Below, piece after piece: positions 17,500 to 60,368 of a stretch of 64,000 nt of DNA. The DNA comes from Eledone cirrhosa (lineage: Eukaryota): assembly GCA_964016885.1 (NCBI GenBank), contig OZ024750.1, positions 23,374,001 to 23,438,000 of the forward strand. Reading direction: 5' to 3'. Each line of letters begins with the position of its first letter. Position 1 is the stretch's first letter. The translations under genes and the position numbers were made by a program. The notes beneath the pieces were generated by a model. That model saw nothing but the letters and a program-made list of their open reading frames with translations. It was not told the DNA's origin and ran no database searches.

Positions 17500-17948
17500 C
17501 GGCAGAGACAATGGCGGCGGAGGAGACGGAATGAAATGGAAAAAAAATATTTCTGTTTCTAAGAAAGATTATGATTGATAAACTGAGACGAGATGAAAGA
17601 AATCTGTCCCAGTGACTATTTTCAGCCGATAATAAACAGAAAGGTGAAGTAGTGCTTACATCGAAGGCCAATCTCCATCTCCATGTCTCTCTCTGTCGCT
17701 CTATCTCCCTCTCCTCTCTCTCTCGCTCTTTCTCCCTCTCCCTCTCGCTCTTTCTCCCTCTCCCTCTCCCTCTATCTCTCTCTCATCATCTTTCTATATA
17801 ATTACGGAGTACAACTCAGTTTTCATGTGATCACAGCGAACAACTATTATGCCTTTACATATCTATATATATATTTGTCTATCGTTTTACATCACATTTT
17901 TGTTCTTTAAAGAAATAAAATATATATAAATATATATATGTATATATA

Positions 17949-18214
17949 CCGTATTTCCCAGCGCCGAGGACGCTTCGTCCTCGAGGACGCACCCTAATTT
18001 TGACAACCAAAAATTTGAAAAAAATAATTGTGTCTACTTTTGGCACAAGGCCTGCAATTATCTCAGAGCGTTACTAGTACTTTATTTTATCGGCCGTGTG
18101 AGGATGAAAGGCAAAGTTAAAAATAATAAACAACCTTCGGCCTCCAGGATGCTTTGATAGATTTTTTAGACTTATTTTAGGAAAAAAGTAGCGTCTTCGA
18201 CGTCGGGGAAATAC

Positions 18215-18216
<2 letters not shown>
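17949..18216. mobile_element. Tc2-like MITE with a nested 5'-truncated SINE A
   Basis: TA|CCGTATTTCCCAGCGCCGAGGACGC ... GCGTCTTCGACGTCGGGGAAATACGG|TA. The minus-strand SINE at ~18025-18120 is flanked by AAAAATAAT on both sides. Confidence 0.88.
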
Positions 18217-18281
<65 letters not shown>

Positions 18282-22650: not shown

Positions 22651-22860
22651 GACAGTTAAAAAGGAAAACAAGTCAACATTATTGACTGCCAACAAGTTGC
22701 AGGTTTTGCATCAGAGTTTTCCTTCTAGAAAGTGCCCTAAAAAGGACTACAGTTCTCTCACTCCCGGTGGGCATACCGCGTGCACAGGCACCAACATTTC
22801 CATGTCCCCGCGCATATATACATATATACATACACACACACACACACATATATATATATA

Positions 22861-29657: not shown

Positions 29658-29792
29658 TGTGTGTGTGTGTGTGTATGTATGTGTGCGTATATGTATGCAT
29701 GGGTGTGCGTATGCGTGTGTGTATGCGTGCGTGCGTGGTAGGGTGATAAATTTAAAGAAATTTCAACTACATAAAGCTTTGTTTGTTTCACT

Positions 29793-29830
29793 CCTGCTGC
29801 TACTATTACTACTGCTATTACTACTACTAT

Positions 29831-29873
<43 letters not shown>

Positions 29874-30078
29874 GGTGTTGCTGCTGCTGCTATGGCTGCT
29901 GCTGCTGCTTTTCTATCGACTGCTATCCATCTAGTATCATCTGTAACATCAAGAATATTTCAATCATCAACATTATCCTCCACCTCCGCCTCCTCCACCT
30001 GCCCCTCCTCATCCTCCTCCTCCTCCTCAACATCATCATTGTCATCATCATCATCATTAACATCACCATCACCGCCGC

Positions 30079-30110
<32 letters not shown>

Positions 30111-30153
30111 ACATCAATCTCATCAACATCATCAACATCAACCTCATCAGAAC

Positions 30154-30184
<31 letters not shown>

Positions 30185-30320
30185 GTCGTCTTTCGTCATC
30201 ACGCTTACCACTGTCATTTTATTAATTACCATCATCCTGATCACCATTATCAACCCCCCCCCATCATCACCACTACCACCAACACCAGCATGATCAGCAC
30301 TTCCTTTACCATCCACAACC
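29793..30320 (+). repeat. compound trinucleotide repeats (CTA)n, (CTG)n, (CCT)n and (CAT)n
   Basis: Seen directly. They grade into the satellite. Confidence 0.92.
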
Positions 30321-33300
30321 CCACCACCACCACCACCACCACCACCCCCAACACAAACAACAAAGCCATCACCACCATTACTTCTACCACCACCACCACC
30401 ATCCCCAACACAAACAACAACGCCATCACCACCATTACTTCTACCACCACCACCACCACCCCCAACACAAACAACAACACCATCACCACCATTACTTCTA
30501 CCACCACCACCACCACCCCCAACACAAACAACAACACCATCACCACCATTACTTCTACCACCACCACCCCCAACACAAACAACAACGCCATCACCACCAT
30601 TACTTCTACCACCACCACCACCACCCCCAACACAAACAACAACACCATCACCACCATTACTTCTACCACCACCACCCCCAACACAAACAACAACGCCATC
30701 ACCACCATTACTTCTACCACCACCACCACCACCCCCAACACAAACAACAACACCATCACCACCATTACTTCTACCACCACCACCACCCCCAACACAAACA
30801 ACAACACCATCACCACCATTACTTCTAACCCCCCCCCCCAACACAAACAACAACACCATCACCACCATTACTTCTACCACCACCATCCCCCAACACAAAC
30901 AACAACAGCATCACCACCATTACCTCTACCACCACCACCACCTCCAACACAAACAACAACACCATCACCACCACACCACCTCCAACACAAACAACAACAC
31001 CATCACCACCATTACTTCTACCACCACCACCACCACCACCACCCCAACACAAACAACAACACCATCACCACCATTACTTCTACCACCACCACCATCCCCC
31101 AACACAAACAACAACACCATCACCACCATTACTTCTACCACCACCACCACCCCAACACAAACAACAACACCATCACCACCATTACTTCTACCACCACCAT
31201 CCCCCAACACAAACAACAACACCATCACCACCATTACTTCCACCACCACTACCCCCCAACACAAACAACAACACCATCACCACCATTACTCCTACCATCA
31301 CCCCACCCACCCCCAACACAAACAACAACACCATCACCACCATTACTTCTACCACCACCACCCCAACACAAACAACAACACCATCACCACCATTACTTCT
31401 ACCACCACCCCACCCACCCCCAACACAAACAACAACACCATCACCACCATTACTTCTACCACCACCACCCCAACACAAACAACAACACCATCACCACCAT
31501 TACTTCTACCACCACCATCCCCCAACACAAACAACAACACCATCACCACCATTACTTCTACCACCACCACCACCCCAACACAAACAACAACACCATCACC
31601 ACCATTACTTCTACCACCACCACCACCACCCCAACACAAACAACAACACCATCACCACCATTACTTCTACCACCACCACCACCACCCCCAACACAAACAA
31701 CAACACCATCACCACCATTACTTCTACCACCACCACCACCACCCCAACACAAACAACAACACCATCACCACCATTACTTCTACCACCACCACCACCGCAA
31801 CACAAACAACAACACCATCACCACCATTACTTCTACCACCACCAGCCCCAACACAAACAACAACACCATCACCACCATTACTTCTACCACCACCAGCCCC
31901 AACACAAACAACAACACCATCACCACCATTACTTCTACCACCACCACCCCAACACAAACAACAACACCATCACCACCATTACTTCTACCACCACCATCCC
32001 CCAACACAAACAACAACACCATCACCACCATTACTTCTACCACCACCCCCAACACAAACAACAACACCATCACCACCATTACTTCTACCACCACCACCAC
32101 CACCCCAACACAAACAACAACACCATCACCACCATTACTTCTACCACCACCACCACCACCCCAACACAAACAACAACACCATCACCACCATTACTTCTAC
32201 CACCACCACCACCCCAACACAAACAACAACACCATCACCACCATTACTTCTACCACCACCACCACCCCAACACAAACAACAACACCATCACCACCATTAC
32301 TTCTACCACCACCACCCCCAACACAAACAACAACACCATCACCACCATTACTTCTACCACCACCACCACCCCAACACAAACAACAACACCATCACCACCA
32401 TTACTTCTACCACCACCACCCACAACACAAACAACAACACCATCACCACCATTACTTCTACCACCACCACCCCCAACACAAACAACAACACCATCACCAC
32501 CATTACTTCTACCACCACCATCCCCCAACACAAACAACAACACCATCACCACCATTACTTCTACCACCACCCCCAACACAAACAACAACACCATCACCAC
32601 CATTACTTCTACCACCACCACCACCACCCCAACACAAACAACAACACCATCACCACCATTACTTCTACCACCACCACCACCACCCCCAACACAAACAACA
32701 ACACCATCACCACCATTACTTCTACCACCACCACCACCCCAACACAAACAACAACACCATCACCACCATTACTTCTACCACCACCAGCCCCAACACAAAC
32801 AACAACACCATCACCACCATTACTTCTAACCCCCCCCCCCCTCCAACACAAACAACAACACCATCACCACCATTACTTCTACCACCACCACCCCCAACAC
32901 AAACAACAACACCATCACCACCATTACTTCTACCACCACCACCCCCAACACAAACAACAACACCATCACCACCATTACTTCTACCACCACCACCCCCAAC
33001 ACAAACAACAACACCATCACCACCATTACTTCTACCACCACCACCCCCAACACAAACAACAACACCATCACCACCATTACTTCTACCACCACCACCCCCA
33101 ACACAAACAACAACACCATCACCACCATTACTTCTACCACCACCACCACCCCAACACAAACAACAACACCATCACCACCATTACTTCTACCACCACCAGC
33201 CCCAACACAAACAACAACACCATCACCACCATTACTTCTAACCCCCCCCCCCTCCAACACAAACAACAACACCATCACCACCATTACTTCTACCACCACC

Positions 33301-35520
33301 ACCCCCAACACAAACAACAACACCATCACCACCATTACTTCTACCACCACCACCCCCAACACAAACAACAACACCATCACCACCATTACTTCTACCACCA
33401 CCACCCCCAACACAAACAACAACACCATCACCACCATTACTTCTACCACCACCACCCCCAACACAAACAACAACACCATCACCACCATTACTTCTACCAC
33501 CACCACCCCCAACACAAACAACAACACCATCACCACCATTACTTCTACCACCACCACCACCCCAACACAAACAACAACGCCATCACCACCATTACTTCTA
33601 CCACCACCACCACCCCAACACAAACAACAACACCATCACCACCATTACTTCTACCACCACCACCACCACCCCAACACAAACAACAACACCATCACCACCA
33701 TCACTTCTACCCCCACCACCCCCAACACAAACAACAACACCATCACCACCATTACTTCTACCACCACCACCACCCCCAACACAAACAACAACACCATCAC
33801 CACCATTACTTCTACCACCACCACCACCACCACCCCAACACAAACAACAACACCATCACCACCATTACTTCTACCACCACCATCCCCGAACACAAACAAC
33901 AACACCATCACCACCATTACTTCAACCACCACCACCCACAACACAAACAACAACACCATCACCACCATTACTTCAACCACCACCACCCCCAACACAAACA
34001 ACAACACCATCACCACCATTACTTCTACCACCACCATCCCCCAACACAAACAACAACACCATCACCACCATTACTTCTACCACCACCCCCAACACAAACA
34101 ACAACACCATCACCACCATTACTTCTACCACCACCACCACCACCCCAACACAAACAACAACACCATCACCACCATTACTTCTACCACCACCACCACCACC
34201 CCCAACACAAACAACAACACCATCACCACCATTACTTCTACCACCACCACCACCCCAACACAAACAACAACACCATCACCACCATTACTTCTACCACCAC
34301 CAGCCCCAACACAAACAACAACACCATCACCACCATTACTTCTAACCCCCCCCCCCCTCCAACACAAACAACAACACCATCACCACCATTACTTCTACCA
34401 CCACCACCCCCAACACAAACAACAACACCATCACCACCATTACTTCTACCACCACCACCCCCAACACAAACAACAACACCATCACCACCATTACTTCTAC
34501 CACCACCACCCCCAACACAAACAACAACACCATCACCACCATTACTTCTACCACCACCACCCCCAACACAAACAACAACACCATCACCACCATTACTTCT
34601 ACCACCACCACCCCCAACACAAACAACAACACCATCACCACCATTACTTCTACCACCACCACCACCCCAACACAAACAACAACGCCATCACCACCATTAC
34701 TTCTACCACCACCACCACCCCAACACAAACAACAACACCATCACCACCATTACTTCTACCACCACCACCACCACCCCAACACAAACAACAACACCATCAC
34801 CACCATCACTTCTACCCCCACCACCCCCAACACAAACAACAACACCATCACCACCATTACTTCTACCACCACCACCACCCCCAACACAAACAACAACACC
34901 ATCACCACCATTACTTCTACCACCACCACCACCACCACCCCAACACAAACAACAACACCATCACCACCATTACTTCTACCACCACCATCCCCGAACACAA
35001 ACAACAACACCATCACCACCATTACTTCAACCACCACCACCCACAACACAAACAACAACACCATCACCACCATTACTTCAACCACCACCACCCACAACAC
35101 AAACAACACCATCACCACCATTACTTCTACCACCACCACCACCACCCCCCAACACAAACAACAACACCATCACCACCATTACTTCAACCACCACCACCCA
35201 CAACACAAACAACACCATCACCACCATTACTTCTACCACCACCACCCCCAACACAAACAACAACACCACCACCATCCCTCAACACAAACAACAACACCAT
35301 CACCACCATTACTTCTACCACCACCACCCCAACACAAACAACAACACCATCACCACCATTACTTCTACCACCACCACCCCCAACACAAACACAAACAACA
35401 ACACCACCACCATCCCTCAACACAAACAACAACACCATCACCACCATTACTTCCACCACCACTACTACCACCACCACCACCACCACTACCACCACCAACA
35501 ACAACAACAACAACAACAAC
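30320..35520 (+). repeat. ~50-56 bp satellite (CCAACACAAACAACAACACCATCACCACCATTACTTCT(ACC)n), about 100 units
   Basis: Invariant core with a variable (ACC)n/C-run linker. The linker shifts frame between units. Confidence 0.97.
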
Positions 35521-36226
35521 CACACAATAACCATTATTACCATCAACAGCGACATCAGATAGCTAAGTTCTCATCAATACCTAAACCGTTTTCACAAAGA
35601 TTTCCCTCCCACGACGTTTGTATGTTGTGGTTGTTGTATGTTGTATACAGTGTCGCCCGCATAGCTAGCTAGAAGGGGTAGTTAGTCCCCCACCCCCAGA
35701 CGGCACTTTTTGGAGGGAGCACCACTTTTCGTGTATAACTGTGTTATGGTGGGCGACAAGACACACGGACCGACACTCCCAGACCTCTGTTGTGTTCACC
35801 ATACCTTCCTTACCAGAATGTTGTTTGCACAGAAAAAAAAAAAAGAAGAAAAAAAACACCACGAATCTACATGGACCTCCATCGGTTTCGACGATGAGTA
35901 CTCCAGCTGTTCGATCAACGGATCAGCCTGCCGAACCTATAGCGGCGAAGACTTCTGGCGTTCTTTGTTCCCGTACCACCTCCCTACTTACTCTTTGCTA
36001 TTGTTGCGGAGTTGGCCACCCACGGGATTTAGCGCCGCGAGTTGGAATGGCTGGCTATTTCAACGCATGCATCTCTTTCTGCTGAAACCACAAGGCGGCT
36101 TGTGCCTTGGGCTCTGCGCACCAGAGGGCGTTCTCCCACGCTATCCGAGTTTGTATCATTGGAGTAGCGATAGTATAGGTTGATGATATATTTAAATGTA
36201 TTCACACAAACGTTCGCGCACGCATG

Positions 36227-46179: not shown

Positions 46180-46402
46180 GTGAGGTTTTTTTTACAAAAT
46201 GAAAAATAACCGAGGTGTCCTACACGAGTGGAAGTATAAAGAAAAAGGGATGAAATCGAAAATGCAACTGAAGTCTTATTTTTTTAAAAAAATATATATA
46301 TTTATTTGGTTCCAAATAAGGAACCAATAAGGAACCAAATAAATATATATATATTTTTTTTAAAATAAGACTTCAGTTGCATTTTCGATTTCATCCCTTT
46401 TT

Positions 46403-46529
<127 letters not shown>

Positions 46530-49508: not shown

Positions 49509-49580
<72 letters not shown>

Positions 49581-50042
49581 ATTTCCGTAGGAAGGGTAAA
49601 GGAAAGGAGAGTGCTCTGTGTATGGTACAGAGCTATTTGATTATGTAATAAACAACATAAGACAATTATTCCATTTACCAGAGGTTTCACGAAGACATAC
49701 GAGCTCAACAGAGACGTCTGATGAGCGATTTCGGACGTCTCTGTTGAGCTCGTCTGTCTTCGTGAAACCTCTGGTAAATGGAATAATTGTCTTATGTTGT
49801 TTATTACATAATTATATATATATATTTGTACTGCCTCTCTGTTTTTGTTGCCGTCCCAGTTTTCACTGTATATCACCACCCCACTCTCAAGAGCGTGAAA
49901 TTAATAAACATTTGTTTGTACTGCCTCTCTGTTTTGTTCTCGTCCCAGTTTTCAGTATATATCACCACCCCACTCTCAAGAGCGTGAAATTAATAAACAT
50001 TTGTTTGTACTGCCTCTCTGTTTTGTTCCCGTCCAATTTTTC

Positions 50043-50102
<60 letters not shown>

Positions 50103-52797: not shown

Positions 52798-52855
<58 letters not shown>

Positions 52856-53124
52856 GAATAAACAAGAGAGATGAACACTAATATAAACATACATGTGTTC
52901 GAATCGCAAGGAAAAAATTTGCTAGGGTGAAAAAATACTAACTACAAGTTAGTATTTTTTCACCCTAGCAAATTTTTTCAGCCTAGCAAGTTTGGTCCTT
53001 ACGATTCGAACACATGTATGTTTATATTAGTGTTCACCTCTCTTGTTTATTCAATTATATTGTACGTCTCGGAAAAGCTTTTTTCTTAGAGCTATTTAAT
53101 TGTAAGAGACTACCCTGATTTCTT

Positions 53125-53235
<111 letters not shown>

Positions 53236-54513
53236 TGAAGGCGTGTGGTTGAGTGGTTAGAGAATTGGATTCGCAATCGTAAGGTTGTGAGTTCGATTCC
53301 TGGACCAGGTGATGCGTTATGTCCTTGAGCAAGACACTTTATTTCACGTTGCTCCTTCTACCTGGAGTTGCGACCGATAGATAGTATTAGCAATTGGAAA
53401 GACCAACGGAAACATTGTTCCCTCGGTCCGATTTGACGAAAGTCGATCGTTCCTAAAAAAAAAAATATATATATACAGTGTACCCCCGGCATTCGCTGTT
53501 CCGGTTATTTGCGGAATTTTCCTTAGAACCTGACGCGCGTTTCGCTATTGATCAGCTCAAGGTTCGATCTGTATATACGTACACAACACCGAAAAGTTTG
53601 TTTGTGTTCTGTCTTGCCTTCTATTTGAATTTTATATACAACTGTTTCGTCAGCAGAGTGTTGTGTCCTTGACCCTATCCAGAAACTGATGGGTGGGGTA
53701 AGCTACAAGTAAGGTGGAGTTTCCACAAAGAAGAGAAAACTAGCTGCATTTTCATTGTTTATTGTTTAGTCAAAGAGGGTAGAGCTGCACCCTTGATTCT
53801 TTTCAGGGCCTCTAAAACTGGTGGGAGGGAAGGAACGAGGATGATATCCTCAACCTAGAGACCTAACCTGATTGGACTCTGCTAAAGGCACACAAGAACC
53901 AGGTTGTGGTGTTTAAAGAATGAGCGAGAATGATAGAGAGGAAGTGTGAAAGGGATATAGAGGAAGAACCCCCCAGTACTTGACTGGTACCTTTTTATCG
54001 CCCTAGAAAGTATAGAATATTAATACTAATAATGTATTTGATCTCTCTCTCTCTATATATATATAAAGGAACGATCGACTTTCGTCAAATCGGACCGAGG
54101 GAACAATGTTTCCGTTGGTCTTTCCAATTGCTAATACTATCTATCGGTCGCAACTCCAGGTAGAAGGAGCAACGTGAAATAAAGTGTCTTGCTCAAGGAC
54201 ATAACGCATCGCCTGGTCCAGGAATCGAACTCACAACCTTACGATTGCGAATCCAATTCTCTAACCACTCAGCCACACGCCTTCTCTCTCTCCCTCTCTC
54301 TCTCTAGAGAGAGAGAGAGATTATATCACACTCTGCTCTGTAAGAACATAGAGTGCTCAACCGGCCTACCGCATATGGAAGCATCATAGCTACCATCAGA
54401 CAAACATATATATTTAATTTCATTTGTACCGTTTCCTCTCACCCCCCTTTTTTCTATATGTCTCTCCACCACTCCCCTACACACCCTTGGAACTCTCTTC
54501 CCACACACTTTTC

Positions 54514-54545
54514 ACCTGAAGAAGGGCTTATGCCCGAAACGTCGT
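54514..54545 (+). ncRNA. minimal hammerhead ribozyme motif
   Basis: AC-CTGAAGA-A-GGGC-TTAT-GCCC-GAA-ACGT-C-GT, with a GUC cleavage triplet at 54541-54543. It is followed by the 85-bp stub, AATAAA and (TA)n. Confidence 0.72.
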
Positions 54546-59747: not shown

Positions 59748-59840
59748 AAAAATGGAGTGCTGCATGGTTGCACATGGGTTACATATGAGTAAATTTAGTC
59801 CTTCATCAGTGATCTTCCAATCTTCATTGGTATTTCATCG

Positions 59841-59896
<56 letters not shown>

Positions 59897-60368
59897 GCGA
59901 TGAAATACCAATGATGGTTGGCAAATCACTGACGAAGGACTATTTTTATCATATGTAACCCATGTGCAAACCACGCAGTATTCTTCTTTCTTCTCATGTT
60001 TTATATATATATATAATTATATATATATATATATAATTATATATATATATAGGAAAATGTTTAACCTCGACGGCTATTTCAGTCAAGAAATAGCCGTCGA
60101 AACAGCTTGAGCTCTGCCGTCGGCGTAAAACATTTTCCTATTACGCACTCTACTACCCTAAGTATTGAGTACTCTGGTGCGTTATGGTCCATCTGGTGCC
60201 TTACCACACTTCCTTCGTTATATATATATAACGAAGGAAGTGTGGTAAGGCACCAGATGGATCATAACGCACCAGAGTACTCAATACTTATATATATATA
60301 TGAAGTGTCAACGTTTCGGAACTGACTGAAACTGCCGGGTTCGCCGTTAGGGCTACACCTCTTAACTA

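What the first reader, a model, noticed from the sequence alone, without database searches (positions are those of the whole stretch)
49640..49812. 79-bp-arm fold-back whose junction sits on the hammerhead core
Seen: arms 49640-49718 and 49734-49812 are inverted with one mismatch. The loop plus right arm spell CTGATGA-GCGA..TCGT-GAAAC-CTCTG-GTA-AATGG, a hammerhead missing only the 5' strand of stem I. That strand is replaced by the inverted arm via GACGTC(T/C)GA microhomology. Established: Penelope-like elements often carry inverted partial pLTRs. Inference: the RT stalls or switches template at the ribozyme, or two cDNAs primed from either side of a break anneal there.
Basis: partly seen in the sequence, partly recalled or inferred. 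Interest (0 to 1): 0.7.

Follow-up and report, generated by a model that had tools for sequence, protein, structure and literature searches.

The report
Head-to-head Penelope stump at hammerhead
This 173-base palindrome is two back-to-back stumps of a very common hammerhead-bearing repeat, likely the end of a Penelope-like jumping gene, joined at a five-letter overlap that likely glued two freshly copied DNA strands together; the layout is a known one.

Summary
The arms (79 bp, one mismatch) and the hammerhead fold are real. Four public runs show a high-copy family (207-2535 records laid per run). The family base at 49733 is A, so the arms were likely 82 bp, joined at a perfect TCTGA/TCAGA overlap around a 9-nt spacer. 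The 63-nt left flank is also family sequence: a 3' tail present at one end only. Other loci show the same head-to-head layout with other junctions, so this is not a MITE. The layout is published for Penelope-like elements; the RT gene itself was not found. Best mechanism (about 0.5): two cDNAs primed from either side of a break in (TA)n anneal at the overlap. Self-priming with later loss of one tail is the rival (0.3). Ribozyme cleavage does not explain the junction: both arms read through the cut site. One lead remains: shared sequence ends abruptly about 12 nt upstream of the core, as if the template RNA began at the edge of helix I. This locus's own junction was not seen in independent reads.

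The parts
49512..49576 (.). (TA)n run, left boundary and likely target
   Evidence: sequence; a family contig also runs from this end into a TA run (table 7, X4 49596)
49577..49639 (-). 63-nt 3' tail of the element, on the left copy only; holds a 7-bp stem-loop with an AC-rich loop (49613-49633)
   Evidence: contigs run through 49577-49704 (table 8, records 1, 9, 11, 17); tail/body depth 0.035, 0.039, 0.34 in X1, X2, X4; fold z -4.46 for 49577-49660 minus
   Evidence: the family letter differs at 49698 in 245 of 287 depth units, X1
49717..49721 (.). junction overlap TCTGA, shared by the start of the ribozyme core and the reverse complement of the 5' strand of inner helix II
   Evidence: family has A at 49733 in 8628 of 8783 depth units, X1; the perfect overlap at birth is inferred from that
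49718..49783 (+). type I hammerhead lacking the 5' strand of helix I: core 49718-24, helix II 49725-63, GAAA 49764-67, helix III 49767-75, predicted cut after 49776, 3' strand of helix I 49777-83
   Evidence: helix I completed in other family copies (table 7)
49722..49730 (+). 9-nt unduplicated spacer, native to the right copy
   Evidence: 49725-28 pair with 49760-63 in the fold; family contigs run 49717-49825 (table 8)
49731..49812 (+). right arm: sense copy ending at the family's common, tail-less 3' end; private change at 49733
   Evidence: loose ends behind 49825 are TA runs in 63 and 70 contigs and 522 reads; 7% of X1 depth at 49815 has the letter that continues into the tail
49813..49825 (.). 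short (TA)n run, right boundary
   Evidence: sequence

Best explanation
This is a single head-to-head insertion of two 5'-truncated copies of a high-copy hammerhead-bearing repeat, likely the pLTR end of a Penelope-like element, and it likely formed when both ends of a break in (TA)n each primed a cDNA and the two cDNA 3' ends annealed at TCTGA/TCAGA. Inferred steps: (1) an element-encoded endonuclease, supplied in trans, cuts both strands in (TA)n; (2) the left end primes at the far end of the tail, the right end at the internal start that omits the tail; (3) both cDNAs read through the uncut ribozyme, the left one into helix II and the right one to the 5' edge of the core or up to about 12 nt beyond, where shared family sequence ends; (4) the ends pair over five bases, flaps including the helix I strand are trimmed, and each strand primes on the other; (5) one substitution later arose in each arm. 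The junction lands on the core because the overlap is built into this family's ribozyme and probably because templates end just upstream, not because the ribozyme cuts. The copy cannot form helix I, and any transcript would fold into the long hairpin, so it is predicted to be inactive. Odds: Penelope-type identity about 0.85; this route about 0.5.
For: Shown: family depth on arms, spacer and left flank; two kinds of 3' end (with and without tail); helix I strand in non-folded copies; 14 skip joints linking inverted tail/3' pieces to sense copies, with 0-96 unduplicated sense bases as aligned; a separate near-identical fold-back in X4 (record 20) whose sense copy starts 4 nt before the core. 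Arms agree at all 8 positions where 22-84% of X1 family depth has another letter (product 0.003 if independent, at most 0.16 if fully linked), so one template lineage. A sister subfamily has a wholly different helix II sequence that still closes just before GAAAC (13, 16, 2 contigs; table 7). Literature: a purified Penelope-type protein cleaves and extends both strands, starts at two sites that bound the tail, and does not need ribozyme cleavage (PMC11167929); inverted 5'-truncated copy, one-sided tail and microsatellite bias are described in PMC8557442 and PMC3846280.
Against: No RT or GIY-YIG gene was tied to the family: 28 of the window's 92 ORFs were scanned, with one weak unrelated Pfam hit, and no genome is held. 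The tail is 63 nt against 30-40 in print. Helix II closes with G.U (A-U in 13% of X1 depth), not the G10.1-C11.1 pair called highly conserved in PMC4209133. Identical arms at birth are expected equally under self-priming. For the other joints the far end of the sense copy is not shown, so one-sided tails are shown only at this locus. This locus's own junction was not seen in the listed contigs. Depth is no copy number, and X1/X2 are one sample that may be the source of the window.
Confidence: 0.5

Rival explanations
1. Self-priming (snap-back). One cDNA, or an antisense transcript, ending at the core folds back on TCTGA/TCAGA across a 9-nt loop and copies itself; the template carried the tail, and one tail was later removed when the intermediate was resolved.
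For: The hairpin needed is small and built in (one search shows the 9-nt loop). Arms share all 8 polymorphic letters. PMC3846280 reads palindromes at head-to-head junctions as self-priming on an antisense template; PMC8557442 ascribes the one-sided tail to endonuclease resolution; small hairpins give inverted duplications at L1 ends (10.1101/2024.12.14.628481, passages). One other joint (X2 49624-49717) shows an extra short mirror of the core itself (table 5c).
Against: The left arm holds 63 nt that its supposed template, the right arm, lacks, and the right arm stops at the family's commonest end, so an extra trimming step is needed. In 7 of 14 other joints the unduplicated part is 60-96 nt as aligned, and in 7 of 14 the inverted piece aligns only in the tail.
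Confidence: 0.3
2. The RT stalls at the folded or cleaved ribozyme and switches template there.
For: In 6 of 14 joints the sense piece resumes at 49717-49724, and shared sequence ends about 12 nt upstream of the core in all four runs.
Against: Resumption at 49717 is where the reference itself stops being native, so that count is biased. Only 1 of 14 joints is within one base of the cut site; both arms here span it. Depth falls smoothly from 49797 to 49725 with no step at 49776 that 9-nt bins resolve. The other three close fold-backs in the window (52853, 46239, 60161) have no core at their centre.
Confidence: 0.1
3. Two unrelated insertions at different times happened to land back to back.
For: The window holds such a likely case (59760-59978: 88% identity, TA run between the arms), and the site is a (TA)n nest.
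Against: No target DNA between the arms, a perfect inferred overlap, and agreement at all 8 polymorphic positions.
Confidence: 0.04
4. Fold-back artefact of library or assembly.
For: No listed contig shows this exact junction; long-read fold-back chimeras are a known artefact (recalled).
Against: Each arm has one private change from the family majority, one of them inside the overlap; the same layout occurs at other loci in contigs of two samples and in raw reads of a third.
Confidence: 0.04
5. A palindromic MITE.
For: TA at the outer ends; short and non-coding.
Against: Most family copies are not palindromic, junctions vary, depth falls about 170-fold from the 3' end to the core in X1 and X2, and the two ends differ by 63 nt.
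Confidence: 0.02

Closest known systems
Inverted 5'-truncated pLTR with optional tail of EN+ Penelope-like elements (Arkhipova et al. 2013, PMC3846280; Craig et al. 2021, PMC8557442)
   Same: Head-to-head copies, overlap or palindrome at the junction, tail at one end, heavy 5' truncation, (TA)n target without a readable duplication, hammerhead in the repeat.
   Different: No ORF between the repeats (solo stump); tail 63 nt rather than 30-40; clade unknown (Naiads are said to lack canonical hammerheads).
Hammerheads of Penelope-like elements (Cervera and de la Pena 2014, PMC4209133)
   Same: Type I order, conserved core, long helix II, short helix III; that paper also notes pairs of motifs on opposite strands 100-700 bp apart.
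   Different: Helix II is 39 nt with two internal loops and closes with G.U or A-U; helix III has 3 bp and a non-palindromic loop; helix I is lost in this copy.
PAc (Poseidon, Anolis) in vitro mechanism (PMC11167929)
   Same: Two start sites bounding a tail, both strands extended, AT-rich target, uncut RNA as substrate; an AC-rich stem-loop also lies near the internal end here.
   Different: No protein or biochemistry for this family; that paper's main text does not describe joined inverted products.
L1 twin priming (Ostertag and Kazazian 2001; seen only as a citation and in passages of 10.1101/2024.12.14.628481)
   Same: Two primers, two cDNAs, inverted join.
   Different: As recalled, L1 inversions do not duplicate the inverted part; here 82 bp are duplicated, there is no poly(A), and there is a tail.
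Animal non-LTR retrozymes (10.64898/2026.07.22.740005, first fifth read)
   Same: Non-coding, type I hammerhead, PLE-related.
   Different: Defined there by tandem units each holding a ribozyme; this locus is an inverted pair with one partial ribozyme.

Membership tests
Type I hammerhead ribozyme | CUGANGA, GAAA and NUH core in type I order | tested here: met
   49718-24, 49764-67, GTA 49774-76
Type I hammerhead ribozyme | Helices II and III | tested here: met
   unconstrained minimum-energy fold; sister subfamily keeps a helix II of different sequence
Type I hammerhead ribozyme | Helix I in this copy | tested here: not met
   descriptor with helix I misses 49718
Type I hammerhead ribozyme | Helix I in non-folded family copies | tested here: met
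   loose-end consensus plus 49717 pairs with 49777-83 over 7 bp, one G.U (A-U in 38% of X1 depth); pairing read by eye
Type I hammerhead ribozyme | G10.1-C11.1 closing pair (highly conserved in PLE motifs, PMC4209133) | tested here: not met
   G.U here, A-U in 13% of X1 depth
Type I hammerhead ribozyme | Match to an Rfam hammerhead model | tested here: not met
   none among 12 matches to E 10 on 49600-49850; none among the 150 shown of 194 for the window
Type I hammerhead ribozyme | Self-cleavage | not testable with these tools
   no assay
EN+ Penelope-like element | ORF with PLE-type RT and GIY-YIG endonuclease linked to the repeat | tested here: inconclusive
   28 of 92 window ORFs scanned, no such family; no genome held; no relatives in prokaryote, viral or metagenome collections
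EN+ Penelope-like element | Hammerhead in the terminal repeat | tested here: met
EN+ Penelope-like element | Inverted 5'-truncated copy joined head to head | tested here: met
   this locus and 14 skip joints shown
EN+ Penelope-like element | Optional 3' tail at one end, in a fraction of copies | tested here: met
   49577-49639; depth ratios; longer than the 30-40 nt in print
EN+ Penelope-like element | Heavy 5' truncation and microsatellite targets | tested here: met
   depth profile (partly due to diverged subfamilies) and TA loose ends
MITE | Copies of uniform length with fixed terminal inverted repeats and a target duplication | tested here: not met
   variable junctions, non-folded copies, unequal ends
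Non-LTR retrozyme | Tandem units each with a complete hammerhead | tested here: inconclusive
   not at this locus; no second copy in the window; arrays elsewhere could not be examined

The most novel reading that the evidence does not exclude
The template RNA of this family begins at the outer edge of hammerhead helix I, about 12 nt upstream of the core, so run-off cDNAs end there and head-to-head joins are made within those last bases by annealing of two cDNAs primed from both sides of one break; the ribozyme would mark the RNA's start without cutting. Thousands of tiny copies would then be a natural junction library that decides between two-primer annealing and self-priming for Penelope-like elements.
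Probability: 0.3. Interest if true: 0.55.

Novelty: new member of a known kind. Interest (0 to 1): 0.3.

Why it matters
The locus itself is a dead stump of a known layout. Its value is as a test set: how Penelope-like elements build their inverted ends is still called undefined (PMC8557442), and a family with many very short copies, two defined 3' ends and subfamily-diagnostic letters allows the two standing models to be told apart by counting. A fixed 5' boundary at helix I, if real, would also bear on what these hammerheads are for, given that cleavage was dispensable in vitro (PMC11167929).

Tried and rejected
No whole genome is held, so junctions could not be mapped genome-wide. Pattern scans for relatives: viral contigs 0 and 0, metagenome contigs 0 and 0, prokaryote genomes 1; that hit, L001, shares 25 bases and nothing more and was rejected as chance. 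Rfam returned only hairpin-type chance matches below gathering score. No RNA holder listed. Piles of read ends in X5 at 49642, 49664, 49667, 49785 and 49788 were not taken as biological ends: they fall on AATT (at 49639-42 only with the family letter) in a reduced-representation library and are likely enzyme sites (enzyme recalled). A TATTTG target duplication was considered and dropped, because the left copy lies inside the family tail and its G is private (99% of X1 depth has A at 49639). A splice acceptor at the 5' edge of helix I, as in D. virilis (PMC4209133), was considered: the family letters there do not end in AG. The 6 of 14 joints resuming at 49717-24 were not counted as a hotspot, because the reference forces them there. 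Earlier-finding look-ups by sequence, place and eight words returned nothing. One joint row of opposite-strand kind (49729-49771) was left out of the count of 14.

Full report
Observation. The window is AT-rich, full of microsatellites and repeats, and has no gene of note near the finding. It looks like an animal genome (cephalopod-like by recall, not tested). The arms 49640-49718 and 49734-49812 pair at 78 of 79 positions around a 15-nt loop, and two more pairs follow one further mismatch. Folded alone, 49718-49776 adopts the hammerhead layout without constraints. A descriptor that leaves out helix I hits three places in the window against 0.09 per shuffled window, and 12 of 20,000 shuffles of the 173 bases. 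Helix I cannot form in this copy. Rfam lists no hammerhead here.

The family. No genome is held, and the family has no second copy in the window. One search listed 7 runs; I laid 4 of them (three samples, two studies) on 49577-49845 at 85% likeness. 2419, 2535, 207 and 2358 records were laid. Contigs run from 49717 to 49825 and have loose ends before 49717 in 36, 35, 7 and 195 records, with a consensus ending in TTTCAT in all four runs. A sister subfamily replaces helix II by an unrelated A/T-rich hairpin between the same core halves, and one joint shows a third, fully paired helix II; the fold is kept while the sequence changes. Against full activity: the helix II closing pair is G.U or A-U, not G-C (PMC4209133, passages and first quarter read).

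The true extent. Contigs also run continuously from 49577 into the left arm, so the 63 bases left of the palindrome belong to the element. Most copies instead end at about 49812 and go into (TA)n. Tail depth is 3.5%, 3.9% and 34% of body depth in X1, X2 and X4 (depth is no copy number). The insertion therefore has one tailed and one tail-less end, each in a TA run. Two stem-loops flank the tail boundary on the sense strand (z -4.46).

The junction. The family has A at 49733 (98% of X1 depth) and G at 49698 (86%), so each arm has one private change. With A at 49733 the arms are 82 bp, the spacer is 9 nt and the overlap is a perfect TCTGA/TCAGA. The arms agree at all 8 positions where 22-84% of family depth differs, so they come from one template lineage. 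Together this argues against an artefact and against two separate insertions. No listed contig shows this exact junction, but only 24 of about 5,200 pieces are printed.

Other loci. Table 5 shows 15 joints; 14 link an inverted tail or 3' piece to a sense copy. As aligned, the sense piece resumes at 49717-24 in 6, at 49753 in 1, at 49778 in 1 and at 49783-95 in 6; the inverted piece lies only in the tail in 7; the unduplicated part is 0-96 nt. X4 record 20 is a separate fold-back whose sense copy starts 4 nt before the core, and 175 X5 reads (agreement 0.66, perhaps few loci) join the inverted tail to a variant core. The family is thus not a MITE, and the mirror half is built anew at each insertion. 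Three other close fold-backs of 66-114 bp in the window have no core at their centre.

Is the ribozyme a hotspot? The cut site is not: both arms span it, and 1 of 14 joints falls within a base of it. The count at 49717-24 is biased by the reference. Background loss is steep (about 5% per base between 49743 and 49725, median further reach 13 nt), so copies that reach the core would mostly end soon anyway. After reading earlier scan notes (unchecked AI notes on other genomes) I compared the loose-end consensus lines by eye. X1 and X2, one sample, agree at 11 of the last 11 letters and at 8 of the 19 before; X4 and X5 agree with X1 at 10 of those 11. That drop is more abrupt than 5% per base would give and suggests a boundary about 12 nt upstream of the core, near the outer edge of helix I. 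Slippage in the A/T runs there could also scramble an ungapped consensus, so this is a lead only.

Mechanism. I favour two cDNAs (about 0.5). A purified Penelope-type protein cleaves and extends both target strands, starts at two sites that bound the tail, and uses uncut RNA (PMC11167929, main text read). One start at each site gives exactly a tailed left arm and a tail-less right arm, and the two 3' ends are complementary over five bases. Self-priming (0.3), proposed in PMC3846280 (passages, abstract and Discussion read), explains the small hairpin and identical arms equally well but needs the right tail removed afterwards; PMC8557442 (passages) allows such resolution. All steps are inferred; none is shown for this family.

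Comparison and novelty. Head-to-head pLTRs with junction palindromes, one-sided tails and microsatellite targets are in print for Penelope-like elements. Membership rests on this non-coding anatomy; the RT/GIY-YIG gene was not found (28 of 92 ORFs scanned). Seven full-text searches listed no paper whose title or abstract start maps inversion junctions to the ribozyme, but the library lacks most subscription papers, and I saw no figures or supplements; Fig. S2 of PMC11167929 and Fig. 2 of PMC3846280 may bear on end positions. I also read the first fifth of 10.64898/2026.07.22.740005 and passages of 10.1101/2024.12.14.628481. Verdict: real, a new member of a known kind, interest 0.3.

Noticed in passing
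window 52853-53055: Fold-back with 114 aligned positions per arm, 2 mismatches, 3-nt loop and 18 extra bases in the right arm; TA at both outer ends; no hammerhead core.
   Followed up: partly
window 46239-46405 and 60161-60288: Two more fold-backs (79 and 66 aligned positions) ending in TA; the first has a short tandem duplication in its loop, the second a (TA) run at its centre.
   Followed up: partly
window 59760-59978: Two 88%-identical copies back to back around a (TA)n run, each with a CTGANGA half core but no GAAA partner nearby; likely two separate insertions.
   Followed up: partly
window 12540 (+), 54516 (+): Minimal hammerheads of other families; 12540 passes the descriptor with helix I.
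   Followed up: partly
window 29457 (+) and 47007 (-): Two 87%-identical copies of another hammerhead-like repeat whose helix II also lacks the G-C closing pair.
   Followed up: no
window 49825-50045: Partial tandem (about 2.6 units of 89 bp) of the 3' end of the family whose hammerhead stands at 54516; further ends at 22855 and 28919. It abuts the finding across a short TA run.
   Followed up: partly
window 17932-18233: About 300-bp element with short terminal inverted repeats between TA runs; looks like a Tc1/mariner-type MITE (recalled).
   Followed up: no
window 53234-53478 and 54043-54287: Inverted arms of 221-245 bp (94-99% alike) 564 bp apart.
   Followed up: no
X2 joint 49624-49717: Another locus where a 10-letter mirror of the core itself lies between the inverted tail and the sense copy: two turns at one junction.
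   Followed up: no
window 29756-35672: Long, strongly skewed array of about 51-57-bp CA-rich units with open frames of up to 1792 codons; probably a minisatellite.
   Followed up: no
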